A stretch of 63,277 nt of DNA, filler included, from Tortispora ganteri (Eukaryota), in the NCBI GenBank assembly GCA_003707115.1. It is 50 parts of 50 records of this genome, joined end to end, with 100 filler letters (N's around TTAATTAATTAA, not from the genome) between each part and the next. Parts side by side here need not be neighbours in the genome. Positions count along the whole stretch, not along the records: positions 59,959 to 61,002 come from PPNB01000233.1; 49 more parts are not named here. The stretch is one strand, 5' to 3'. The notes beneath the pieces are model-generated. The model was given only the letters and a program-made list of their open reading frames with translations. It made no database searches and was not told the DNA's origin. How positions within the stretch are numbered: position 1 is the first letter of the stretch; the number at the start of each line of letters is the position of its first letter. Below, piece by piece: positions 12,532-63,277 of this stretch. The position numbers were made by a program, and so were the translations under genes.

Positions 12532-13750
12532 GTGAAAACCGTGAAAATCGTGAAAATCTTGAAAATCGCAAAAAACACTAAGGCTATAGCCTTGGTAAAT
12601 TTTCAGATTTCACGAAAATCTTGATTTTTTAGAAATTGCTCTTAAAGCCTCTAAAACGTCAGTAAATACTCAAATAACCGAACATTATGCTTAGAATACC
12701 TTCAGAGCCTCTTCTAGGCCTTTTACGCGGCTCATGATAGTTTGCCAATAAAACTGAGCAAATCGCAATACTCGTAAATGTCACCAAGACCACTACATCG
12801 ACTTTGAGAAACCCGCTATCTAGGGCAAACAAACTACATTGCTTTTTAGTCTTGAGGATAGGAAGATGCACTTCCCCGTGGGTCTTGTAGCTATTCCTGT
12901 ACTATTTGATCGTCGATGGTCTTGTCGGTTGGCTTCTGATGAATCTCTGAGATTCTGGCCGGTTGGACTATGATAGCACTGGCATGCATGTACACGCGAT
13001 CGATGACTTGACACCACAGGCTGTTGTCTCAAGAGCCCAATGGCTAATTTTATTATTCCTGGACGCTGTTAACCTTCGATTGAGCGCATCCTGTGTAAGT
13101 TGTTCGCGTGCGTTGCTCAATGTATACGGTCGTCGACAAGAGGTGGAGTAAGCCTAGTGAAGGAGAGCAAACAGCGCCCCCTATTGGCTATAAATATCAC
13201 GTGCAAACACCTATACCCTTGAATAAAGTTTTTTTGGACTGAAGAAAGATGTCGAGCCATGCATCCTATTGGCTATATATCAGGTGATATACCCTATACC
13301 CTGATTTAAAGTTGCGCAAAATCACTGAAAGGCCAAAATAACCCTGAACCCTTCCCGAGAAAACGGGAAACCCTAACCTGATTTTCGAGGCTTCTGATTG
13401 GCTGCCCGTAAACTTTAACCTTAATTGTGAATTAGGGCTTCTGATTGGTCAGTTTCAAACTTTAACCTTATTTTGTACCGTGGCTTCTGATTGGTCGATC
13501 TAAAAGCTTAACCTTCGATCTAAAACCTTAACCTTCGATCGGATCGATCGCCTCTGATTGGTCGATCTAAAACTTTAACCTTCGATCTAAAACCTTAACC
13601 TTCGATCGGATCGATCGCCTCTGATTGGTCGATCTAAAAGCTTAACTTTCGATCTAAAACTTTAACCTTCGATCGGATCGATCGCCTCTGATTGGTCGAT
13701 CTAAAAGCTTAACCTTCGATCTAAAACTTTAACCTTCGATCGGATCGATC
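12532..13750 (-). repeat. Long non-coding repeat family, second copy of the array/right flank
   Basis: Reverse-complement match to 5688-6968 with scattered SNPs. Confidence 0.9.
13179..13204 (+). promoter_or_regulatory. ATTGG(CCAAT)-TATAAA-ATCACGTG cluster in the repeat flank
   Basis: CCCTATTGGCTATAAATATCACGTG, conserved in the copies at ~6302-6326 and ~56200-56224. Function not shown. Confidence 0.4.
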
Positions 13751-16487: not shown

Positions 16488-17702
16488 CCTCGTCTGGCTC
16501 TACCTCGTCTGTAGTGTCATCCTCTGGCTCTGCCTCGTCTGGATCAGCGTCGTCTGTAGTGTCTGCCTCGTCTGAATCAGCGTCGTCTAATTCAGCGTCA
16601 TCCTCTGGCTCTGCCTCGTCTGGCTCTACCTCGTCTGTAGTGTCATCCTCTGGCTCTGCCTCGTCTGGCTCAGTGTCGTCTGGCTCTGCCTCGTCTGGAT
16701 CAGCGTCGTCTAACTCAGCATCCTCTGGCTCTGTCTCCTCTAATTCAGCGTCATCCTCTGGCTCTGCCTCGTCTGGCTCTACCTCGTCTGTAGTGTCATC
16801 CTCTGGCTCTGCCTCGTCTGGCTCTACCTCGTCTGGATCGTTGTCTTCTGGCTCAGTTTCATCTGGATCGTTATCGTCTAACTCAGCGTCGTCTAACTCA
16901 GCGTCATCCTCTGGCTCAGCGTCGTCTAACTCAGCATCCTCTGGCTCTGTCTCCTCTGGTTCAGCTTCCTCTGGATCAGCTTCCTCTGGCTCTACCTCGT
17001 CTGTAGTGTCATCGTCTGGATCAGCGTCGTCTGGATCAGCATCGTCTGGATCGTTATCATCTGGCTCAGCGTCGTCTGGCTCAGCTTCCTCTGGCTCTGC
17101 CTCGTCTGGCTCAGTGTCGTCTGGCTCTGCCTCGTCTGGCTCTGCCTCGTCTGGCTCTGCCTCGTCTGGCTCTACCTCGTCTGTAGTGTCGTCGTCTGGC
17201 TCTGCCTCGTCTGGATCAGCGTCGTCTAACTCAGCGTCGTCTAATTCAGCGTCATCTGGATCAGCGTCATCCTCTGGCTCTGCCTCGTCTGGCTCTACCT
17301 CGTCTGTAGTGTCATCCTCTGGCTCTGCCTCGTCTGGCTCAGCGTCTTCTGGTTCAGCTTCCTCTGGCTCTGCCTCGTCTGGCTCTGCCTCGTCTGGATC
17401 AGCGTCGTCTAACTCAGCGTCGTCTAATTCAGCGTCGTCTAATTCAGCGTCGTCTGTAGTGTCATCCTCTGGCTCAGCTTCCTCTGGCTCTGCCTCGTCT
17501 GGCTCTACCTCGTCTGTAGTGTCATCCTCTGGCTCTGCCTCGTCTGGCTCTACCTCGTCTGTAGTGTCATCCTCTGGCTCTGCGTCATCTGGCTCTGCCT
17601 CGTCTGGATCTGCCTCATCTGGATCTGCCTCATCTGGCTCAGTGTCGTCTGGCTCTGCCTCGTCTGGATCAGCGTCGTCTAACTCAGCATCCTCTGGCTC
17701 TG
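16488..17702 (+). CDS. Internal adhesin fragment, GSASS repeats
   Basis: Open Ser/Gly/Ala frame across the contig. Confidence 0.75.
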
Positions 17703-19174: not shown

Positions 19175-19515
19175 GAAGACAATAATTGTGATCTTTAACG
19201 TATTGTAGATTCCGCAGGTTTAGCAGATTCTGCAGAAGTTTAGGCCCAGCCCGTTACAGAATCAGATCCAATCCATCGGAAAGCCGGGTAATTCGTAGTA
19301 CGCTCATAGTAGAAAAGATCATGAAGACAATAATTGTGATCTTTAACGTATTGTAGATTCCGCAGGTTTAGCAAATTCTGCAGAAGTTCAGGCCCAGCCC
19401 ATCAGAAAATCAGATCCAGTTCATCGGAAAGCCGGGTAATTCGTAGTATATACTAAAAGTAGGAAATATCATGAAGACAATAATAGCGATCTTTAACGTA
19501 TTGTAGATTTCGTAA
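19175..19515 (+). repeat. ~149-bp tandem repeat, ~2.3 copies
   Basis: GAAGACAATAAT...CTTTAACGTATTGTAGATT starts at 19175, 19323 and 19473. The motif CATCGGAAAGCCGGGTAAT also occurs at ~46955 and ~62313. Confidence 0.85.
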
Positions 19516-20487
19516 AGCATAAAGGTGTTTTATCGTAAGTGGCTGTACGAAGAATTTCAAACTTATATTAGATCCCCTTGCAATGTTTAGTCTCTTCCAA
19601 CCCAGTGATGCAACGTTGAAATACACTCCCGGTTTTTCCAATATATCAAGGCTGAGATAAACTAACAAAAAACAATCAGTTTCAGCTACCTTACTAAAAA
19701 ACGGCAAAATGCTTGCATACATATTAACAAACCTTCTCCCTCCATTGCAAACAGACGCGTGTATCAATTTCAAGAGGCAAATTCAGCTCATTTCCTTACA
19801 AATAATTTCCGTTCGCCGGGTAACTTGCAAGCTATATCTTTCTTGAGCAATAATTTCACACAGATTTATTGGAACGTTCGATATAAATCAAACTATTTGT
19901 TGTTGTCAAAAAGTAAATAAAGATTCGGACATTCGTTAACAATTGCATTTGACTCTACCCTAACCCGATGCACTTCCGTCAAATTTTCTGTTAACCCTGA
20001 ATCGGCTTCTATTGCTTTCGTGCATGTTTATTAAAGAAATAGTTTAATCTCTTTTAGTAAATTAATTACTTGATTTATATTTGATCTCTTCTGCTTATTT
20101 TTAGGTAAGTTTAAATGTCATCGCTTGATTGGTGGCGAGCATTAATTTGACCTGATATCTCGTCAAATAACTCCCATCCGTCAATTTCCCAACTCTGTTT
20201 GACTTAAGGCCTCTAGCATTCGTCAACTTAGAATAACTTTTATCTTTGAGTTAGGTCAATTTGAAAACAGTCAAATTTATACTTATTGCAATGAATCCGC
20301 TGTCGCGCGTTGTCGGGCGGGCGGGTCGTCGCGGGTCGTCGTGGTCCGCGGTTCGTGGTTCGTGGTTCGTGGTTTGTGGTTTGTGGTNNNNNNNNNNNNN
20401 NNNNNNNNNNNNNNNNNNNNNNNNNNNNNNNTTAATTAATTAANNNNNNNNNNNNNNNNNNNNNNNNNNNNNNNNNNNNNNNNNNNN

Positions 20488-22998: not shown

Positions 22999-23278
22999 NN
23001 NNNNNNNNNNNNNNNNNNNNNNNNNNNNNNNNNNNNNNNNNNTTAATTAATTAANNNNNNNNNNNNNNNNNNNNNNNNNNNNNNNNNNNNNNNNNNNNAG
23101 TTTGCAATACAGCTGCGGTTATCGCACTAGTCTCCTCTCGCTCATTTAATTAAATCTTAAGTTCACCTAGCATTTGTTCAGTAGGCTTTCCAGATACCGC
23201 ACTTTTAGTATCGATAGTTTTGGCAATTCACGTAGACAATGCCTGCTCATTTACATTCAGTCAAACATGCATCAATAG

Positions 23279-23429
23279 TAGGGGTGGCGGGGGTTTTTAT
23301 ATATATTGAATTACTATTTCGGGACGTCACGTGACTTGTGCTTATTTCCGTTTCGGGAAGTCACGTGCTTATGATTATTCCCAATTCGGACTGTCCCAAT
23401 CGGGAAATTATCTACACTCTATCTTATCC
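23279..23429 (+). mobile_element. Possible truncated hAT-like transposon end
   Basis: Starts TAGGGGTGGCGG where homology to the 21798-22998 spacer stops. Contains repeated TCGGGA and GTCACGTG motifs. Second copy at ~61813-61964 (reverse). Confidence 0.35.
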
Positions 23430-23472
23430 ATCTAATCTCCGCTATCGCCGAGATTAGTCTCCATTCCCCTTC

Positions 23473-23507
<35 letters not shown>

Positions 23508-23543
23508 CCCATCCCCACACTCCTTGAAACGATCAATTTATAA

Positions 23544-24299
23544 CTACAAATTTAAACTAGATAGCAAACTAATCTGAAAAGAGTGTCGGTATTCACTGTA
23601 GAGCACAAGTCGCAACGGCGTCCAGCCCACCGACAATCGCTCATAAATATACCAAATGGACCCTGAGTTCAATGGGTGCACGAGATTCCATCCACCACTT
23701 CCGATTGCCTCTATGTCCCCGCACCTCATCCCGCTTTCCCCAACAAAAATATACGCTAAGTAGTCAATCGACCCTAAGACATATTTTATCCCGTTCGGTC
23801 CCTGAACATATACCAGCACCTCCGTCACTGCATTGACATTATTGTAGTGGATATCTAGATAAGCCCCAACAATTTTCACGTCAACCTTGCTGGAATTCCC
23901 CACCCGGTACTTCCCATCGGCTACCTCCGTTCCATTGTACTGTCTAAGATCCACCGCCCACTCTCGCGCCAGCAGCGTTTGCGACGGTGCGCACAGGCAA
24001 GCGTTTGACACTACTCCACAGCTGCTGCTACTCGAGGCGCTAGAACTCCACTGAGCTGAGCTGGATACGCTCGAACTGACACTCGAACTGGGACTGGAAC
24101 TCAAACTAGAACTCAAACTAGAGCTCAAACTAGAACTAGAACTAGAACTAGAACTAGAACTAGAACTCAAACTAGAACTCAAACTAGAACTAGAACTCAA
24201 ACTAGAGCTCAAACTAGAACTCAAACTAGAACTCAAACTAGAACTCAAACTAGAACTCAAACTAGAACTCAAACTAGAACTGGAACTCAAACTAGAACT
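23544..24299 (-). CDS. 3' part of adhesin type C: SSSL stalk plus C-terminal domain variant 1
   Basis: DGKYR...EVLVY...IFVGESGMRCGDIEAIGSGG...WTPLRLV, TAG stop. Confidence 0.85.
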   Translation of the reverse strand, partial: SSSLSSSSSLSSSLSSSLSSSLSSSLSSSLSSSLSSSSSLSSSLSSSSSSSSSSSSSLSSSLSSSLSSSPSSSVSSSVSSSAQWSSSASSSSSCGVVSNACLCAPSQTLLAREWAVDLRQYNGTEVADGKYRVGNSSKVDVKIVGAYLDIHYNNVNAVTEVLVYVQGPNGIKYVLGSIDYLAYIFVGESGMRCGDIEAIGSGGWNLVHPLNSGSIWYIYERLSVGWTPLRLVLYSEYRHSFQISLLSSLNL

Positions 24300-26950: not shown

Positions 26951-28130
26951 CCTTGATATATCAAAGAGTCTTTTCGCCTGAATACGATGTTAAATCGCAA
27001 TTTAGCTGACATACAAGAACGTAGGTATACTCTTGATACGCCAGAATAGAGCCTAATCAAACTGGTTTTCGAAGATCTAGTGCTTGCTTTGAAACAGCTT
27101 AACGAACAACAATATGCTACAAGATAGTCACAGATGCAGTCAAGCAGTTTAGGTACCAAGCGAAGGACCAGAAACCGCACAAAGAGAAATTGAGACCATC
27201 GAAAGTAAAGTAAGACTACCAAAAGTAAAGTATGGAAGCCGAAGTGAAGGTATCTGAGGTTAAGGCAAGACAGCCAATACTAAGTCAGAGACAAAATAGC
27301 AGATAATGATCTAGCATATCGATAGATAGCGTGTTCCTCAATGTCGAAGCAGGTGGCTTTGGTGGTTTTTACGAGTACTGCGATTTGCTCAATTTTGTTG
27401 GCGAACTATCATGAGCCGCGTGAAAGGCCTAGAAGAGGCTCTGAAGGTATTGTAAGCAGACTGATCGGTTATACGAGTATTTATTGACGTTTTAGAGGCT
27501 TTAAGAGCAATCTCTAAAAAATCAAGATTTTCGTGAAATCTGAAAATTTACCAAGGCTATAGCCTTAGTGTTTTTTGCGATTTTCGAGATTTTCACGGTT
27601 TTCACGGTTTTCACAGTAAACTGTCACCAGCTGCAGAAACACTTCTTAAAGGTATTATATGCATAATGGAACGACATTTGAGTATTTTGGTGGCGTTTGG
27701 GCCGCTATAATGAGCACTTTTAGAAAAATCATGATTTTCGCGAAATCTGAAAATTTACCAAGGGTGTAGCCTTGGTGTTTTTTGCCGTTCCATCATTTGC
27801 ACAAGATTTTCGCGATTTTGCTAATTAGAAGCCACAAGCCGCGCCAAATGCAGTACTTATATGTTCTAAAACTGTGCTAGACATAGTGGAATGATAGTAG
27901 ATTATTCAGTGGAGCTTTAATGGTTATATACTGCCGTGGCAGGTTGAAGGAACATATATAGCATGCCCTACAATTCCCCTTACCAACATTGGTAGTTTTC
28001 GACAAGTTTGATATTCTTGTAATACTGTCCAAAACAGTCGTGAATACCGTCGAAAAGCAATCGAAGCTGTGATTATTAATGCTCCTACTATTTGAATGAA
28101 GCTTATTTTGTGATGTTGCATGTTAACGTG
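26951..28130 (+). repeat. Long non-coding repeat family, bridging segment with an internal ~60-bp duplication
   Basis: Near-identical to 52911-54002. 27323-27600 matches 6683-6968 and ~27970-28130 matches ~41168-41330. Confidence 0.88.
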
Positions 28131-28230: not shown

Positions 28231-29400
28231 AACGATCCAGATGACGCTGAGCCAGACGAAGCTAAGCCAGAAGAGACTGAGCCAGATGACGCTGAGCCAG
28301 ACGATAACAATCCAGACGACAACGATCCAGATGACAACGATCCAGATGATAACGATCCAGACGATAACGATCCAGATGACGCAGAGCCAGATGACGCTGA
28401 GACAGACGACGCTGAGCCAGATGATAACGGTCCAGACGATGCCGATCCAGACGATAACGATCCAGATGACGCAGAGCCAGATGACGCTGAGACAGACGAT
28501 AACGATCCAGACGAGGCAGAGCCAGATGACGCTGAGCCAGACGATGCTGAGCCAGATGATAACGGTCCAGACGATGCCGATCCAGACGATAACGATCCAG
28601 ATGACGCAGAGCCAGATGACGCTGAGCCAGACGATAACGATCCAGACGAGGCAGAGCCAGATGACGCTGAGCCAGACGATGCTGAGCCAGATGACGCTGA
28701 GCCAGACGACAACGATCCAGATGACAACGATCCAGATGAGGCTGAGCCAGATGAGGCTGAGCCAGACGATAACGATCCAGACAATAACGATCCAGAAGAC
28801 AACGATCCAGATGAGGCAGAGCCAGATGATAACGATCCAGACGAGGCAGAGCCAGACGAGGCAGAGCCAGAGGAAGCTGAACCAGATGACGCTGAGCCAG
28901 ACGATAACGATCCAGATGACAACGATCCAGATGACAACGATCCAGATGACAACGATCCAGATGAAGCAGAGCCAGATGACGCTGAGACAGACGACGCTGA
29001 GCCAGATGACAACGATCCAGACGATGCCGATCCAGAAGATAACAAGCCAGACGACGCCAACGAGCCAGAAGGTACCGATCCAGACGCTGCCGATCCAGAC
29101 GATGCCGATCCAGACGAGGCAGAGCCAGATGACGCTGAGTTAAACGACGCTGAGCCAGATGACGCTGAGCCAGACGAGGCAGAGCCAGACAACGCTGAAT
29201 TAGACGACGCTGAGCCAGATAACACAGAGCCAGACGATGAGACTGCAGACGAGGCAAAACCAGACGACGCTGAGTTAGACGACGCTGAGCCAGAAGACGC
29301 TGAGCCAGACGATGACATTACAGACGAGGTAGAGCCAGATGATGCTGAGCCAGAGGATGTTGAGCCAGACGACGCTGAGTTAGACGACGCTGAGTTAGAC
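28231..29400 (-). CDS. Internal adhesin fragment, GSASS/GSLSS repeats
   Basis: Open Ser-rich frame; shares SGSAASGSVPSGSLAS with 38279-39418. Confidence 0.78.
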
Positions 29401-29500: not shown

Positions 29501-30669
29501 TACGTCGATCTACAGCAATTCGAGTGTCTTGCCAACGTCGATCTACAGCAACTCAAGCGTCTTGCCAACGTCGATCTACAGCAACTCAACTGCCTTGCCT
29601 ACATCGATTTACAGCAATTCAAGCGCCTTGCCGATTTCAGTTTTTAGCAACTCAAGTGCCTTGCCTACGTCGATTTACAGCAACTCGAGCGCCTTGCCAA
29701 CGTCGATTTACAGCAATTCAAGCGCCCTGCCTACGTCGATCTACAGCAATTCGAGTGTCTTGCCAACGTCGATTTACAGCAACTCGAGTGCCTTGCCTAC
29801 GTCGATCTACAGCAATTCGAGTGTCTTGCCAACGTCGATTTACAGCAACTCGAGCGCCTTACCAACATCCGCTTACAGCAATTCAAGCGCCTTGCCTACG
29901 TCGATCTACAGCAATTCAAGCGTCTTGCCGACTTCAGTCTATAGCAACTCAAGCGCCTTGCCTACTTCAATCTATAGCAACTCAACTGCCTTGCCAACGT
30001 CGATCTACAGCAACTCAAGCGTCTTGCCAACGTCGATCTACAGCAACTCGAGTGCCTTACCTACATCGATTTACAGCAATTCAAGCGCCCTGCCGACTTC
30101 AGTCTATAGCAACTCAAGCGTCTTGCCTACGTCGATCTACAGCAATTCAAGTGCCTTGCCTACGTCGATCTACAGCAATTCGAGTGTCTTATCTACGTCG
30201 ATTTACAGCAATTCGAGTGCCTTGCCAACGTCAATCTACAGCAACTCGAGCGCCTTACCTACGTCGATTTACAGCAATTCAAGCGTCTTGCCAACGTCGA
30301 TCTACAGCAACTCAACTGCCTTGCCTACATCGATTTACAGCAATTCAAGCGCCTTGCCGACTTCAATCTATAGCAACTCAAGCGTCTTATCTACGTCGAT
30401 TTACAGCAATTCAAGTGCCTTGCCTACGTCGATCTACAGTAATTCAAGCGTCTTAGCTACGTCGATTTACAGCAATTCAAGTGCCTTGCCTACGTCGATT
30501 TACAGTAATTCAAGCGCCTTGCCAACGTCGATCTACAGCAACTCGAGTGCCTTGCCGACTTCAATCTATAGCAACTCAAGTGCCTTACCAACGTCGATTT
30601 ACAGCAACTCAAGCGTCTTGCCGACTTCAGTTTTTAGCAACTCAAGCGTCTTGCCTACGTCGATTTACA
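29501..30669 (+). CDS. Internal adhesin fragment, LPTSIYSNSS repeats
   Basis: Its 5' end overlaps ~2568-2762. Confidence 0.85.
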
Positions 30670-30769: not shown

Positions 30770-31307
30770 CATGCTTGTTCGTGATATCCATGGCGAGAGA
30801 GTAGACGGCGTAGGCAGAGAGGAGCGTGCAGAGGCCGCCGTAGAGGGAGACAACAACAAGAAATTGAATAAAGTTTTTGTGATTCCGGAAACCAATGCAT
30901 ATAGCGTACCAAGGGCAATGATGGTCCATACGGAGGACGCAGGCTTTACAAGAGGAGCAGTGATGGGCACGATCAGGTTTCCAGCACTTACACTTGTTAC
31001 AGAATCGCATGCGACCGTCGTGCTTTGCAGTGACGGCATCCGATATAGGCGGTACATCCGTTGGAAGCGGTTCACGGCCTATATAGAAGCCTGGTACGTT
31101 GTACACAAACCCAGGGCCCCTAATCCAAGTTAAATTGTATGTAGTCATGCAATAGAGATAGAGGAATGTGACGAAGAAACATAATATGAAGGAATGATAG
31201 TAGTTCAAAGCAATGATATTAGCAACAAAAATCGACCATGTCAAAAGTGCAGAAACACCCAGCCTCGGAATAGCGCTTATAACGTCAGAACATCCGAAAG
31301 AGGGCAT
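30770..31307 (-). CDS. PFA3: DHHC palmitoyltransferase, Pfa3-like, 5' part
   Basis: Two N-terminal TM segments, then [33 protein letters not shown]. The DHHC family call is secure; the orthology is less so. Confidence 0.8.
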
Positions 31308-38278: not shown

Positions 38279-39418
38279 AGCGTCGTCTAATTCAGCGTTG
38301 TCTGGCTCTGCCTCGTCTGGCTTAGCTTCGTCTGGCTCAGCGTCATCTGGCTCAGCGTCGTTTAACTCAGCGTCATCTGGCTCTGCCTCGTCTGGATCGG
38401 CATCGTCTGGATCGGCAGCGTCTGGATCGGTACCTTCTGGCTCGTTAGCGTCGTCTGGCTCGTTATCTTCTGGATCGTTATTGTCTGGATCGTTATCGTC
38501 TGGCTCAGCCTCATCTGGCTCAGCCTCATCTGTCTCAGCTTCATCTGGCTCAGTGTCTTCTGGTTTTGCCTCGTCTGCAGTCTCATCGTCATCTGGATCG
38601 TTATTGTCTGGCTCCGCCTCGTCTGCAGTCTCATCGTCATCTGGATCGTTATTGTCTGGCTCCGCCTCGTCTGCAGTCTCATCGTCTGGCTCAGCATTGT
38701 CTGGCTCAGCGTCGTCTGTCTCAGCGTCATCTGGCTCTGTGTCGTCTCTCTCAGCGTCATCTGGCTCTGTCTCTTCTGGCTCAGCGTCGTCTGGCTCAGC
38801 GTCGTCTGGTTCGTTATCATCTGGATCGGCATCGTCTGGATCGGCATCGTCTGTAGTGTCTTCTGGTTTTGCCTCGTCTGCAGTCTCATCGTCATCTGGA
38901 TCGTTATTGTCTGGCTCCGCCTCGTCTGTAGTCTCATCGTCATCTGGATCGTTGTCGTCTGGATCGTTGTCGTCTGGATCGTTATTGTCTGGATCGTTAT
39001 CATCTGGCTCTGCCTCGTCTGGTTCGTTATCATCTGGATCGGCATCGTCTGGATCGGCATCGTCTGTAGTGTCTTCTGGTTTTGCCTCGTCTGCAGTCTC
39101 ATCGTCATCTGGATCGTTATTGTCTGGCTCCGCCTCGTCTGCAGTCTCATCGTCATCTGGATCGTTGTCGTCTGGATCGTTGTCGTCTGGATCGTTATTG
39201 TCTGGATCGTTATCATCTGGCTCTGCCTCGTCTGGATCGTTGTCATCTGGATCAGCCTCGTCTGGATCGTTGTCATCTGGATCGTTATCATCTGGATCGT
39301 TATCATCTGGATCGGCGTCATCTGGCTCAACTTCGTCTGGCTCAGCGTCATCTGGCTCAGCGTCATCTGGCTCAGCGTCATCTGGCTCAGCGTCATCTGG
39401 CTCAGCGTCATCTGGCTC
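38279..39418 (+). CDS. Internal adhesin fragment, GSASS/GSLSS repeats
   Basis: Open Ser-rich frame. Confidence 0.78.
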
Positions 39419-40758: not shown

Positions 40759-41890
40759 TGTGTTATAGATTGCATCAAAGCAGGTCATTTACTGCCGTGG
40801 CAGGTCGAGGGCACATATATAGCCTACCCTATAGCAATCATCTGTCTAGCTTCATCGATGGTAGAGTGCGTGTCGTGGATCTCGAGACCAAATGATATAT
40901 TCTGTACGTTAAAGGCCATTTTTGAGACAGCGAATGAGTCCAGCGTTCAGTTGCGCTCGCTTCCTGCAAGCATATCAGTACGAAAATATCTCGTTCTGTA
41001 AGTCCAGAAGATTTAAGAATATCCTCTAGCTGTTTAATGCGTGATAAAAGTAATTCTCCGTGTAAATCGCTCTATCCGAGATGCATTACGGTTTCTTACA
41101 GCACCTCACTGATTTCTATGACAGCCGTACCACAAAGTCGATGCCCAGGAGGTCTAGTCTGGTATTCATTCCCCTTGCCAACAACCATGGCACTTTTGGA
41201 TAAGTTTGATATTTTTGTAATACTGTCCAAAACAGTCGTGAATACCGTCGAAAAGCAATCGAAGCTGTGAATATTTATGTTCCTACTATTTGAATAAAGC
41301 TTATTTTGTGATGTTGCATGTTAACGTGCAATGAAGATGCAATTCTAATTTCTGCACTGCTTGCCGATCCTGAAGGCATACATCGTTGATTTTGTTGATT
41401 CGGTTCCAATGCCGGCGAAACGGCATTCACCAACGTGAACATAGTTTCAAACTACTAGTATCACTGATCGGTTTTATTTGGTGGCAATAAAATAACTTGA
41501 AACACATTATTATTTGTGTTTATAGCACTTTAAAGCTGCGCATCTTTTCGCATACTGAGCACCTAGCACTTTACGTTGAGAGCATGCAGTGAGACAAAGC
41601 AGAAGATATTATAGATCTTCAGGCTACGCCAAATGGAGTGTTGCGAATACTTTAGCCGAAGACAGTGATTTTATGCTACTACTACTGCATCTTCAGTGCG
41701 CAGTGAAACCATACAGTATTACAGAGATATATTGCTATAGTGGTTGACGATCTTTAGCGATTAAGGTTTTGAGCCGAGGCAATATATCCCGATTAGGCAA
41801 TATAAACCTTATATTAGCCAATCAATTAGCTGCACAGTTTATTCAAAAAATTAGAGTTTGAAACAATATTGGCCAATCAGAAGGCCTAAT
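40759..41890 (+). repeat. Long non-coding repeat family, left flank with a 334-bp extra segment
   Basis: Overlaps the start of 55287-56368 and the reverse complement of 9842-11094. Confidence 0.88.
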
Positions 41891-41990: not shown

Positions 41991-43121
41991 TCACCGCCCA
42001 CCTTCTTGCCAGCAGCCTCTGTGAAGGTTTGGACGGGCAAGCATTGCACACCACTCCGCAGCTGCTGCTACTCGAGGCGCTAGAACTCCACTGAGCTGAG
42101 CTGGATACGCTTGAACTGACACTCGAACTGCGACTTGAACTTGAACTCAAACTAGAACTCAAACTAGAGCTCAAACTAGAACTAGAACTCATACTAGAAC
42201 TCAAACTAGAACTCAGACTAGAACTCAAACTAGAACTCAAACTAGAACTCAAACTAGAACTGGAACTCAAACTAGAACTCAAACTAGAACTGGAACTCAA
42301 ACTAGAACTCAAACTAGAACTGGAACTCAAACTAGAACTTAGACTAGAACTGGAACTCAAACTAGAACTAGAACTCAAACTAGAACTGGAACTCAAACTA
42401 GACCTAGAACTCAAACTAGGACTAGAACTTGAACTAAAATTCAAACTCGAACTGAAACTAGAACTAGAACTAGAACTCAAACTGGAGCTAGAACTAGAAC
42501 TAGAACTAGAACTAGAACTAGAACTCAAACTAGAACTCAAACTAGAACTCAAACTAGAACTCAAACTAGAATTCAAACTCAAACTCAAACTCAAACTCAG
42601 ACTAGAACTGGAACTCAAACTAGAACTAGAACTGGCGCTGGCACTCGAACTGACACTCGGATTCCTATCCTCGCCGGCTGACACCCCTAGCACCAAAGAT
42701 ACCCCTGCAAGTCCCACCACCACCTCACCATCTCGCTTGCGGCTCTCTGGTACAACAACAACACGTACAGGCGTCCACCCAGACACCGCCCTGTTCACCG
42801 TTTCCCCGTAAACCGTTCCACCACTACCGATCGTCCCGATATCCCCGCAACTCATCCCCATCTCCCCGACGAACACCTGCGCACGCCCGCCCCTGATCTC
42901 CGTGATCCTGCCGTCTCCCACGTAGAACATCACCTCCACCAGTCCTGCATCACCTTCCACAGCGATCCCATCGCCCGTTACTTCTGCATCCAGAACCACT
43001 TTCGCCCCGGATCTGTACTCCCCCGCCGCAATCGCCTCGAAGCTGCCGTCGAACACGTCATAGCCCGCCGCATACACGGCCTCATTATACGCCGGCCGCG
43101 AACCGCACACAGACAGAGCCC
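41991..43121 (-). CDS. Internal fragment of adhesin type C: domain (AGEYR...WTPVRV, RKR) plus SSSL stalk
   Basis: Its 3' end overlaps the start of 61103-61702 (CGVVCNACPSKPSQRLLARRWAV). Confidence 0.85.
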
Positions 43122-46886: not shown

Positions 46887-47998
46887 ACGAATTTTCTAAT
46901 CCCGACATTGTGTCTATTTTCTGCCCGTGTGCGTTATCTACATCTTGCGAAGAACATCGGAAAGCCGGGTAATGATATCGAATTATTACGCATCCCACAA
47001 AGATCACTAATTTTATAGTTGCTTACAAGACTTTATTCTCTGTGTTTCAGATGTATGCAGAGATTCATTTTGCATCTCATTTTAAATATGCAACTTTAAA
47101 ATCTACCGGTATGTTCGACTGCCGTTATGCTCAATTTCATAATAACCAGCAACCCTTTGCGTCCTATTACACGAGATTCGCATTTCTATCTAGCAAATCT
47201 ACGAAGAACTTATGGTAACTTCCTCTGTCATGTGCTCTATATAAGTGTACTCAAATAGTCAAATATGTGCATACCTCGGATAACTGCATACCAAAAAGCA
47301 ATTTATCTTTCTGGCATTTATGTAAATATTTGAAGAACAGTCAACTTCAGCATGCCATTCTCTATTAAGTAGACTACCATACACCGCATACTAAGTAGTC
47401 AAAAGTTTTACTATATATCTTTCGAACCTATATCATATCTTATAATTTATTTTAATGAACCAAAATCTACACTTGAACGTTTATTCATTCTTCTATATTT
47501 ACAATGTTAAGCAAATACCAGACAACTTTTATAGCAGTTACCAATGACATTAACCATTAAAGCTGAAAATTACGTTTATAGTACATATCCAATATATGTT
47601 CTCCATCCCACGCTGCATAAATAATCTTTTTGTACAAATAAATTCTGTCTGAGCGATTCTAATAACATAAGCGATCAGACTATTGCAAGGCGAATCAATG
47701 TACTCAAACCTTATATCTTGGACGTTACAACCGTCGTGCGGCTGTTAAGATTATCAATGGTGTCAAACCTTATTATAAACGAGCCTGTCAATCGCCCCCT
47801 CATATATACAACTCCCTCCCGCCGCCCCCAGCCACCTTCACATCCGTCGCGGCTCATGTACTACATGGTAAAGCCCGCCAAAACCAAGCAATCAACCAGT
47901 GAAATCCGTGATTGAGCGTTCTGATTGTACGGTTCCAGAGCGTTTAGTGCAATGGCCACAGAAGTTATCCGCTTCGTGCGTCCGGAACACTAAAAGCA
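46887..47998 (+). repeat. AT-rich non-coding repeat, copy 1
   Basis: Near-identical to 62245-63277. Confidence 0.85.
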
Positions 47999-59958: not shown

Positions 59959-61002
59959 CTGCACTTAAGGACTTTGCTTTGCAAAGCTTCCTTGCCAGTG
60001 CTTAAAGTGACAGACGAGGCCGCAAACCTTGTCGACTCCGCCTCATCAGCGAAGAAGTTAATCCTGTGAAGGAGAAAGTTATCACCCTTAAAGCTAGCAG
60101 AATTTGTGTATGGCTTCTATGCCTTGTGAAATCTGCGATGATGCCATTAATTGTGAATTCAATTAATTTCCCAAATAACCGGAATGCACCACCGCGTTGG
60201 AAGAAACCAACCGTCACACTTGACTATCCCGCTCTGACTAGCGCATCAAGCACTTCGGTACCGCGTGCGCTCATCAGTGATCTATGACTTCGGTCATCTA
60301 AGACGATCAATCCCACCCAGAGCACTGGGTGATCGGGAGACCTTGAGTTGTTGCCTCCAGAACACCTGCCATTGCTAAGCAAGAAAGGAGTCGCAAGACT
60401 CCGCTTCGTTGCGGTTCGCATGAACTGGCGTTTTCCCAGAGTAGGTCAAGTGTGGTGTGTTGCGTTTTGGGACGGTTTCGGCCGTCCCGTGGTCTGCAAA
60501 TGATCCTTCGGGTGAAACTGCTTAATAAGACCGATCAGCGTCCTAACAAGGACGCGGGGTTTGCTTTCTCGTGAACAGGTTGGACCTTGCGAAAGGTAGG
60601 TATATTCTCACAATGACGCGTCATTGTTGTTTTGTGTCACTTTGTGTTTTTTTTATTCTCCGTCTTTTACCTCTGGTCGAGTATCTGCGCTGTGTCTTGC
60701 ATAACCAAGGCTAAAGTCCTGACTGACTTAAGCAGTGACGCCGGGCACGTTTCCGGCTGACCTGTGTATGGATTGGCACAGATGCTTGTTTGAACGTGCG
60801 GTAGAGTGTTCAACCCACTCGCCGCCAGACGCTACAGAGCGATAGTTGGGCAGGAGTTTCTCTTCTGCTTCAATGCCTCGAAAGACACTGGTGAACGCGT
60901 CGCTGCGCGTTTGCCAACCGCTAACGTTAGTCATAGCCTGCCGGTCTACAAGTAGGATCCGGATTCTGCGTTCTGATTGGCAGGTTCCAACTCGGGATAA
61001 AT
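59959..61002 (+). ncRNA. Unidentified large structured RNA (or structured transcribed spacer)
   Basis: Many hairpins capped by UUCG and GNRA loops on the + strand, long-range helices, no credible ORF. Confidence 0.55.
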
Positions 61003-61102: not shown

Positions 61103-61702
61103 AGTTCTAGTTCTAGTTTGAGCTCTAGTTTGAGTTCTAGTTTGAGTTCAAGTTCAAGTCGCAGTTCGAGTGTCAGTTCAAGCGTATCCAGCTCAGCTCA
61201 GTGGAGTTCTAGCGCCTCGAGTAGCAGCAGCTGCGGAGTGGTGTGCAATGCTTGCCCGTCCAAACCTTCACAGAGGCTGCTGGCAAGAAGGTGGGCGGTG
61301 AATCTTACGGAGTATACTGAAACGGAGGTAGCCGATGGGAAGTACCGGGTGGGGAATTCCCATCGGGTTAACGTGATGATTGTTGGGGCTATTCTAGATT
61401 TCTACTACAATAATGTCAATGCAGTGACGGAGATGCTGGTATATGTTCAGGGACCGAACCAGATAATGTATATCGTTGGGCCCCCTTCCTACTTAGGGTA
61501 TATGTTTGTTGGGGAAAGCGGGATGAGGTGCGGGGACATAGAGGCAATCGGAAGTGGTGGATGGAATCTCGTGCACCCATTGAACTCAGGGTCCATTTGG
61601 TATATTGATCAGCAATTGTCGGAGGGGTGGACGCCGATGCGATTTGTGTTCTACAGTGGATCCCAGGGCTGGATTGACATTTATTTCAACTCTAATATCT
61701 AG
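61103..61702 (+). CDS. 3' part of adhesin type C, C-terminal domain variant 2
   Basis: Paralog of 23544-24299 with many amino-acid changes. Confidence 0.85.
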   Translation, partial: SSSSSLSSSLSSSLSSSSSRSSSVSSSVSSSAQWSSSASSSSSCGVVCNACPSKPSQRLLARRWAVNLTEYTETEVADGKYRVGNSHRVNVMIVGAILDFYYNNVNAVTEMLVYVQGPNQIMYIVGPPSYLGYMFVGESGMRCGDIEAIGSGGWNLVHPLNSGSIWYIDQQLSEGWTPMRFVFYSGSQGWIDIYFNSNI

Positions 61703-62244
61703 TTTATATTTGTAGTTATAAATTGATCGTTTCAAGGAGTGTGGGGACGGGAGTAGAGAGAGAGAGAATTGAAGGGGAATGGAGACTAATCTCGGCGATA
61801 GCGGAGATTAGACAAGTAAGATAGAGTTTAAGAAATTTCCCGATTGGGACAGTCCGAATTGGGAAAAAACATAAAGCACGTAACGTCCCGAAAGAAAAAT
61901 AAGCATAGATCACGTGACGTCCCGAAATGGAAATTCGATATATATAAAACCCCCGCCACCCCTACTATTGATGCATGTTTGACTGAATGTAAATGAGCAG
62001 GCATTGTCTACGTGAATTGCCAAAACTATCGATACTAAAAGTGCGGTATCTGGAAAGCCTACTGAACAAATGCTAGGTGAACTTAAGATTTAATTAAATG
62101 AGCGAGAGGAGACTAGTGCGATAACCGCAGCTGTATTGCAAACTNNNNNNNNNNNNNNNNNNNNNNNNNNNNNNNNNNNNNNNNNNNNTTAATTAATTAA
62201 NNNNNNNNNNNNNNNNNNNNNNNNNNNNNNNNNNNNNNNNNNNN

Positions 62245-63277
62245 ACGAATTTTCTAATCCCGACATTGTGTCTATTTTCTGCCCGTGTGCGTTATCTACA
62301 TCTTGCGAAGAACATCGGAAAGCCGGGTAATGATATCGAATTATTACGCATCCCACAAAGATCACTAATTTTATAGTTGCTTACAAGACTTTATTCTCTG
62401 TGTTTCAGATGTATGCAGAGATTCATTTTGCATCTCATTTTAATTATGCAACTTTAAAATCTACCGGTATGTTCGACTGCCGTTATGCTCAATTTCATAA
62501 TAACCAGCAACCCTTTGCGTCCTATTACACGAGATTCGCATTTCTATCTAGCAAATCTACGAATAACTTATGGTAACTTCCTCTGTCATGTGCTCTAGAT
62601 AAGTGTACTCAATAGTCAAATATGTGCATACCTCGGATAACTGCATACCAAAAAGCAATTTATCTTTCTGGCATTTATGTAAATATTTGAAGAACAGTCA
62701 ACTTCAGCATGCCATTCTCTATTAAGTAGACTACCATACACCGCATACTAAGTAGTCAAAAGTTTTACTATATATCTTTCGAACCTATATCATATTTTAT
62801 AATTTATTTTAATGAACCAAAATCTACACTTGAATGTTTATTCATTCTTCTATATTTACAATGTTAAGCAAATACCAGACAACTTTTATAGCAGTTACCA
62901 ATGACATTAACCATTAAAGCTGAAAATTACGTTTATAGTACATATCCAATATATGTTCTCCATCCCACGCTGCATAAATAATCTTTTTGTACAAATAATT
63001 CTGTCTGAGCGGTTCTAATAACATAACCGATCAGACTATTGCAAGGCGAATCCATGTACTCAAACCTTATATCCTGGACGTTACAACCGTCGTGCGGCTG
63101 TTAAGATTATCAATGGTGTCAAACCTTATTCTAAACGAGCCTGTCAATCGCCCCGTCATATATACAACTCCCTCCCGCCGCCCCCAGCCACCTTCACATC
63201 CGTCGCGGCTCATGTACTACATGGTAAAGCCCGCCAAAACCAAGCAATCAACCAGTGAAATCCGTGATTGAGCGTTC
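62245..63277 (+). repeat. AT-rich non-coding repeat, copy 2
   Basis: Near-identical to 46887-47998. Confidence 0.85.

What the first reader, a model, noticed from the sequence alone, without database searches (positions are those of the whole stretch)
59959..61002. Roughly 1 kb densely structured RNA of unknown class
Seen on the + strand: TCCT-GTGA-AGGA (60062-73), ATGAC-TTCG-GTCAT (60284-97), CACCCAG-AGCA-CTGGGTG (60314-31), GGAGTC-GCAA-GACTCC (60387-402), GGGACGGT-TTCG-GCCGTCCC (60469-88), CC-TTCG-GG (60505-12), GCGTCCT-AACA-AGGACGC (60538-55), ACCTT-GCGA-AAGGT (60584-97) and an 18-bp palindrome (60610-27). Long-range helices: CACACTTGAC/GTCAAGTGTG (60215-24/60445-54) and AGGACTTT/AAAGTCCT (59968-75/60713-20). 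A T8 run lies near 60647. Established: UUCG and GNRA loops mark functional RNA and indicate the strand. I could not match rRNA, snRNA, SRP, RNase P/MRP or group I/II cores. Candidates are an rDNA 5' ETS, telomerase RNA, an intron- or virus-derived RNA, or a new ncRNA.
Basis: partly seen in the sequence, partly recalled or inferred. Interest (0 to 1): 0.72.

Follow-up and report, generated by a model that had tools for sequence, protein, structure and literature searches.

The report
Probable doubled yeast rRNA leader
This folded, protein-free, multi-copy stretch from a Tortispora-type yeast is most likely the leader (5' external spacer) of the ribosomal RNA precursor, unusual because a folded unit of about 1.2 kb seems to occur twice in a row, but its link to the rRNA genes has not been shown.

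Summary
The listed hairpins are all present and the structure exceeds chance (fold z about -4; 6 UUCG/GNRA hairpins against 0.9 expected). The finding is one whole 1,044-nt contig from a Tortispora-like yeast, with no Rfam match and no gene.

It occurs in four related organisms (about 93% identical in the one near-complete relative) and has within-genome variants. Its depth is about 9 times single-copy, from one comparison.

New here: a diverged second copy of its core lies about 1.2 kb downstream at similar depth. The contig's 3' hairpin domain also recurs at the end of another window contig, right after an AT-rich spacer with a Reb1-type box. Inferred layout: spacer, unit 1, unit 2, at least 2.2 kb in all.

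Best reading (0.65): an rDNA 5' ETS lengthened by a whole-unit tandem duplication. Linkage to 18S, U3 pairing and transcription were not testable. Covariation was inconclusive. Main rival (0.22): a tandem pair of a new ~1.2-kb multi-copy ncRNA. A single-copy telomerase RNA and a standard rRNA intron are unlikely.

The parts
59959..61002 (+). Whole stand-alone contig; structured non-coding segment of a multi-copy repeat
   Evidence: covered in 30, 29, 30 and 30 of 30 bins in organisms A, B, C, D
59959..60890 (+). Inferred 3' ~930 nt of structured unit 1 (boundary approximate)
   Evidence: inference from the 1200-1227 offset and from where homology to 47845-47937 begins
60003..60644 (+). Predicted large domain closed by helix 60003-12/60635-44, with nested long-range helices 60063-79/60563-79 and 60215-25/60444-54
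   Evidence: pair probabilities 0.92-0.99; prediction only
60250..60261 (+).
   Evidence: table 3
60262..60313 (+). Core block 1, kept in the downstream paralogue (stem AUGAC/GUCAU kept, loop changed)
   Evidence: tables 5 and 7; extent upstream of 60292 judged by eye from a 30-nt loose end
60435..60487 (+). Core block 2 (3' arm of helix 60215/60454 and the UUCG hairpin 60469-88), kept in the paralogue at similar depth in organisms A, C, D
   Evidence: tables 4, 7, 8
60490..60533 (+). Helix 60490-95/60528-33; the paralogue keeps 5 of 6 pairs (one G-C to A-U, one G-C to G-U) with the loop cut from 32 to 6 nt
   Evidence: by-eye comparison of a loose end
60647..60654 (+). T8 run, polymorphic among copies (two more T in about a third of organism A depth)
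   Evidence: table 4
60898..61002 (+). Inferred 5' start of unit 2: two hairpins (60889-916, 60935-986)
   Evidence: z -3.70; homology to 47845-47937
47845..47998 (+). Paralogue of the unit-2 start (about 60 of 93 columns alike), inferred start of unit 1; about 135 nt predicted missing before 59959
   Evidence: nhmmer E 0.0073, only hit in 49 contigs; helices keep 10 of 12 and 5 of 7 pairs; adjacency not shown
46887..47790 (+). AT-rich spacer (GC 0.24-0.41) with a Reb1-type box at 46965-72; inferred intergenic spacer upstream of unit 1
   Evidence: motif label recalled
62245..63277 (+). Second variant (98.7% identical) of the spacer contig, box at 62323-30

Best explanation
[quoted passage not shown] RNA polymerase I would start near 47800-47845, at the end of the AT-rich spacer, and transcribe a leader of at least 2.2 kb made of two diverged ~1.2-kb folded units before reaching 18S. 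As in other fungi, the leader would fold as it is made, bind UTP-A, UTP-B and U3 snoRNA to build the 90S pre-ribosome, and be cut off and degraded. SHOWN: structure above chance, no gene, multi-copy depth, within-genome variants, conservation across four organisms, a same-depth paralogue downstream. INFERRED: order spacer-unit 1-unit 2, the start site, polymerase I, position before 18S, U3 binding.
For: Depth 8.4-9.2 times a 15.7-kb contig in organism B. Minor variants at 0.36, 0.37 and 0.10-0.15 of depth in A, C, D, while most listed species differences are carried by the full depth, as expected for a homogenised repeat. About 93% identity over 1004 nt in organism C, with 1-nt indels that rule out coding. 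No Rfam family, tRNA or Pfam domain. An AT-rich spacer in two variants with a Reb1-type box ends in the paralogous hairpin domain; yeast rDNA spacers carry Reb1 sites (PMC8701712, passages). Fungal 5' ETSs are poorly conserved in sequence but fold into several helices (PMC5456268). Plant 5' ETSs sometimes hold subrepeats (PMC8724763; bioRxiv 2023.02.20.529178). Nine rDNA copies is on record for a compact fungal genome (PMC7181583).
Against: No 18S sequence was seen: the letters after 61001 in organism C do not look like an 18S start (judged from recall), and no rRNA is in the window. At least 2.2 kb is three to four times the fungal leaders cited (587 nt in Chaetomium; about 700 nt in S. cerevisiae). 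The copy number rests on one contig in one run and is low for a yeast (20-30 in Komagataella). The spacer-to-contig join is inferred from paralogy only. With laxer alignment scoring 7 of 98 contig strands outscored that homology. Covariation: 7 pairs kept, 9 broken, 24 unpaired among the 40 of 84 differences shown, null P 0.21; two-sided changes between paralogues 3 against 2.0 in shuffles, 144 of 500 as high. Reb1-type boxes also occur outside rDNA. The paralogue was not among the rows shown for organism B.
Confidence: 0.65

Rival explanations
1. A tandem pair of genes for a new class of ~1.2-kb structured ncRNA in a ~9-copy cassette (subtelomeric, or in the rDNA spacer), transcribed from its own promoter (TATA-like run near 47804-47811). 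Each unit would act as a stable RNP scaffold with a conserved core (60262-60313, 60435-60533).
For: Two units with a shared 5' domain and shared core but different middles look like paralogous genes. High UUCG/GNRA density. Unit 1 is conserved along its whole length. The spacer's 19-nt box is shared with contigs that also carry telomere-like CCCTAA words. Length and copy number are atypical for a yeast ETS.
Against: No Sm site or box C motif by my recalled patterns; no terminator-like signal seen at the inferred unit boundary; homogenised, multi-copy, non-coding and conserved fits rDNA more simply.
Confidence: 0.22
2. Very long ITS, rRNA expansion segment or rDNA intron(s) with unusual peripheral domains.
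For: Multi-copy, homogenised and structured.
Against: No rRNA or group I/II match in 1044 nt at E up to 10; the paralogous start follows an AT-rich spacer, not rRNA.
Confidence: 0.06
3. Non-autonomous retro-element, virus-derived or viroid-like insert, plasmid or mitochondrial DNA.
For: About 9-fold depth could be an organelle or episome; a degenerate single-copy piece ends a 15.7-kb contig in organism B.
Against: No hammerhead core or terminal repeats, no coding frame under tables 1, 3, 4 or 12 with a Pfam hit, no true match in phage, plasmid or viral collections; GC 0.50 and fixed-ratio variants are unlike yeast mtDNA (general knowledge).
Confidence: 0.05
4. Telomerase RNA.
For: Size of about 1.2 kb and a U-rich tract at 60628-60670.
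Against: Multi-copy and duplicated; no CCCTAA/TTAGGG word and no Sm site by the patterns tried.
Confidence: 0.02

Closest known systems
Fungal pre-rRNA 5' ETS (S. cerevisiae about 700 nt; Chaetomium thermophilum 587 nt)
   Same: Non-coding, multi-helix, multi-copy, homogenised within a genome, conserved within a genus, apparently downstream of an AT-rich spacer with a Reb1-type box.
   Different: At least 2.2 kb, built of two diverged ~1.2-kb units; rich in UUCG/GNRA loops; about 9 copies; 18S link and U3 sites not shown.
Plant 5' ETS with subrepeats (Arabidopsis, Vicia, Solanum)
   Same: Repeats downstream of the transcription start lengthen the leader.
   Different: Here the repeat is a whole ~1.2-kb folded unit, far diverged outside short cores, in a yeast.
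Long yeast RNP-scaffold RNAs (telomerase RNA, U2, large H/ACA RNAs; recalled)
   Same: About 1 kb, conserved core with variable arms.
   Different: Those are single-copy; their cores were not found.

Membership tests
rDNA 5' ETS | Lies directly 5' of 18S on the same strand | not testable with these tools
   No genome held; flanks seen only as 30-nt loose ends; no homologue in the collections scanned
rDNA 5' ETS | Multi-copy and homogenised, with depth equal to 18S/25S | tested here: inconclusive
   Multi-copy (8.4-9.2 times) and homogenised are met; 18S depth was not measured
rDNA 5' ETS | Preceded by an intergenic spacer and polymerase I promoter | tested here: inconclusive
   AT-rich spacer with Reb1-type box linked by paralogy only
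rDNA 5' ETS | Two sites pairing with the U3 5' and 3' hinges (PMC3130255, PMC3239212) | not testable with these tools
   The organism's U3 is not in the window
rDNA 5' ETS | Non-coding, folds into several helices | tested here: met
Telomerase RNA | Single-copy gene | tested here: not met
Telomerase RNA | Template matching the telomere repeat; Sm site | tested here: inconclusive
   No TTAGGG-type word or Sm pattern; the species' repeat is not known here
Group I / group II intron | Catalytic core (P3-P7; domain V) and flanking exons | tested here: not met
   No Rfam match at E up to 10; no rRNA exon or coding frame in the contig
SRP, RNase P/MRP, snRNA, snoRNA, rRNA, tRNA | Match to family covariance model | tested here: not met
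Retrozyme / viroid-like RNA | Self-cleaving ribozyme, terminal repeats or rod fold | tested here: not met

The most novel reading that the evidence does not exclude
Tortispora-type yeasts carry a ~9-copy cassette with two diverged genes for a so far undescribed class of ~1.2-kb structured RNA (shared 5' hairpin domain, shared UUCG-capped core), independent of the rRNA precursor or released from it as stable RNAs.
Probability: 0.22. Interest if true: 0.8.

Novelty: new variant of a known kind. Interest (0 to 1): 0.4.

Why it matters
If it is the 5' ETS, it is an ordinary part of every eukaryotic rRNA gene, but with an odd build: a leader three to four times the fungal lengths cited here, made by doubling a whole folded unit. 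Comparing the two units would show which elements a 90S scaffold keeps, and would ask whether one or both units bind U3 and UTP-A. If it is not joined to 18S, it is a new multi-copy long ncRNA in an early-branching budding yeast, which would be a real surprise.

Tried and rejected
No genome is held for this window. Rfam: 0 matches at gathering score; 3 chance matches at E 1.4-9.4 for the contig; 0 at E up to 0.5 for the window. Phages: no match; plasmids: one 23-nt chance match. Pattern scans: viral 0, 0 and 4 loci, metagenome 1, prokaryote genomes 1; all 6 loci match only the pattern. No RNA holder listed. Komagataella as host was considered from genome size and dropped. Frames of 217 and 197 codons under table 4 have no Pfam hit and are cut by 1-nt indels in relatives. 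The covariation tests were not significant. The first protein search timed out; the Atlas gave only 'eukaryotic DHHC'; the PDB search gave 0. An 11-nt tetraloop receptor at 60283-60302 was considered by eye and rejected because it clashes with the conserved hairpin. A resemblance of the core and of the unit junction to yeast U3-binding and A1 sites was noticed from recall only, could not be checked in the papers read, and is not counted. Earlier-findings look-ups by sequence and place were empty.

Full report
WHAT THE WINDOW IS. The window is 50 contigs of 1.0-1.3 kb joined by N-linkers, mostly repeat families. The finding is one whole contig, 59959-61002, 1044 nt, GC 0.50. Residues 1-100 of a DHHC protein fragment at 30771-31307 are 90% identical to a Tortispora caseinolytica protein, the only hit among 31 candidates. 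The host is therefore taken to be a Tortispora-like budding yeast (Trigonopsidales). T. caseinolytica has a 9.2-Mb genome (PMC5499181, passages), which fits the 9.3-9.6 million letters of the four runs laid. That the contig belongs to this yeast is inferred from the shared assembly and from its presence in these runs.

OBSERVATION. The + strand folds at -342 kcal/mol, z -3.96, 0 of 20 shuffles; the - strand gives z -4.78, so energy does not fix the strand. Stable tetraloops favour +: 6 on +, 2 on -, against 0.92 in shuffles (maximum 5 of 2000) and 0-3 per strand in the other 49 contigs. Local windows are only mildly stable (1 of 12 below z -2). The ensemble prefers a domain closed by 60003-12/60635-44 with nested helices 60063-79/60563-79 and 60215-25/60444-54. 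No Rfam family, tRNA or gene was found.

DISTRIBUTION AND COPY NUMBER. Ten of 12 listed runs hold part of the sequence, 2 of them half or more. I laid 4 runs, one each of organisms A-D. They cover 30, 29, 30 and 30 of 30 bins. One contig of organism C spans 59998-61001 with 60 substitutions and 14 gaps, 92.6% identity. Depth per contig is fairly flat: about 2050-2640 in A, 500-550 in B, 80 in C, 590-890 in D. In B a 15.7-kb contig of depth 59.5 ends in a degenerate piece of the element, giving a ratio of 8.4-9.2; three B variants at one site stand at 4.1, 3.0 and 2.2 times that depth. Minor variants make up 0.36 (A), 0.37 (C) and 0.10-0.15 (D) of depth. This is a multi-copy, largely homogenised repeat. 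The number nine rests on one contig in one run, and the tool warns that depth is no copy number.

THE ELEMENT IS DOUBLED. In A, C and D a second sequence matches 60435-60487, and in C and D also 60292-60313 with the 121 nt between them replaced (tables 4, 5, 7, 8). Its depth is 0.71, 1.08 and 0.88 of the main copy. In D it has exactly the depth (709.4) of the 1243-nt contig that covers 60680-61001 and runs 923 nt further, so I place it on that contig, at an offset of 1227 nt; C gives about 1200 if its two contigs are neighbours. It was not among the rows shown for B (73 rows were hidden). By eye, its 30-nt flanks keep the stem of hairpin 60284-97 with a new loop, and 5 of 6 pairs of helix 60490-95/60528-33 with one two-sided change.

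Independently, the contig's 3' end (60898-60989) resembles 47845-47937 in contig 46887-47998. It is the only nhmmer hit among 49 contigs (E 0.0073), and scores 24 against a maximum of 20 in 166 shuffles searched over all contigs. With laxer scoring, 7 of 98 contig strands scored higher and 1 of 1000 shuffles reached it, so the match is real-looking but not strong. The shared hairpin keeps 10 of 12 and 5 of 7 pairs; the first hairpin keeps only 6 of 12. That contig is AT-rich for 900 nt (GC 0.24-0.41) and turns GC-rich just before the match. It exists in a second variant, 62245-63277, 98.7% identical. Both carry CCGGGTAA, which I recall as the Reb1 site; it occurs 6 times in the window against 0.66 expected, in 4 related contigs. 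The simplest layout is: AT-rich spacer, unit 1 (from about 47845, a predicted gap of about 135 nt, then 59959-60890), unit 2 (from about 60898 to at least 1000 nt beyond the contig). The spacer-to-contig join is an inference; no read link was available.

IS THE STRUCTURE UNDER SELECTION? Not shown. Of 84 differences, the tool displayed 40; 7 kept a predicted pair, 9 broke one and 24 fell in unpaired or uncertain places, against null means of 8.0 and 11.5 (P 0.21). One 'broken' site is kept as G-U in two of three organisms, and at least one has its partner in a stretch whose differences were not listed. Single cases agree with the structure: loop-only changes at 60322-23, a restored pair at 60251/60260, several new G-U pairs. 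Between paralogues, two-sided changes numbered 3 against 2.0 in shuffles.

HOW IT MOST LIKELY WORKS. A homogenised multi-copy, non-coding, folded region that follows an AT-rich spacer is what an rDNA 5' ETS looks like. In yeast the leader pairs with U3 at two sites and this is needed for the early cuts and for processome assembly (PMC3239212, abstract and first part of the introduction; PMC3130255, passages). It binds UTP-A and is poorly conserved in sequence but similarly folded across fungi, 587 nt in Chaetomium (PMC5456268, passages). Reb1 sites lie in the yeast spacer (PMC8701712, passages). Repeats inside 5' ETSs are known in plants (PMC8724763 and bioRxiv 2023.02.20.529178, passages). 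Nine rDNA copies is reported for a compact fungus (PMC7181583, passages). I give this 0.65. Against it: no 18S link, a length of at least 2.2 kb, low copy number, and a loop content reminiscent of stable RNAs. The main rival, a tandem pair of new ~1.2-kb ncRNA genes, gets 0.22.

NOVELTY. Nine paper searches (listings only) showed no description of Tortispora rDNA spacers or long ncRNAs; one search listed 34 of 39 papers naming the genus, none on this topic by title. The library lacks most subscription journals, and no supplements were read, so an annotated Tortispora rDNA unit may exist in GenBank or in print. I also read passages of PMC9605565, PMC5010909, PMC11646303 and bioRxiv 2021.06.11.448017; only the Komagataella copy number (20-30) was used. 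Two earlier scan findings ended as 5' ETS in an amoeba; they are analogies, not evidence.

VERDICT. A real structured element, probably a known kind (5' ETS) in a new form (whole-unit duplication), not filed as a member because the defining 18S link is untested. Interest 0.4; 0.8 if the link fails.

Noticed in passing
window 19175-20387 and 2863-4182: Two contigs sharing 90 nt; 148-bp repeats with a 19-nt box (Reb1-type core) also found in the spacer contigs, 14-bp microsatellites, and telomere-like CCCTAA words at 3997 and 4029 (CCTAACCCTAAC at 4024-4035). Could be more rDNA spacer or subtelomere. 3690-4182 does not fold better than shuffles (z -0.53), so not a telomerase RNA candidate on that test.
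   Followed up: partly
window 5688-6968, 9842-11094, 12532-13750, 26951-28130, 40759-41890, 52911-54002, 55287-56368: Family of seven related contigs; the one read (5688-6968) has tandem ~60-bp units each with a CCAAT box. Candidate centromeric or subtelomeric repeat.
   Followed up: no
run X3, contig 11: A 15.7-kb lower-depth contig ends in a degenerate piece homologous to 60296-60361: an array edge or a truncated dispersed copy.
   Followed up: partly
window 1-1334, 16488-17702, 28231-29400, 38279-39418, 58812-59858 and 23099-24299, 41991-43121, 61103-62144: Fragments of long repeat-rich reading frames (acidic 5-residue repeats; Ser-rich repeats followed by a non-repetitive domain); those scanned had no Pfam match. 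Probably cell-surface protein families.
   Followed up: no
window 29529-30668: Pfam CoV_NSP15_N hit (E 9e-12) with no stretch passing on its own: an artefact of a repeated 14-residue unit.
   Followed up: no
window 30771-31307 (-): DHHC palmitoyltransferase fragment on a short contig, used to identify the host genus.
   Followed up: yes
window 47804-47811: TATA-like run followed by a C-rich tract just before the inferred start of unit 1; on the other strand it reads as TATA followed by G residues.
   Followed up: no
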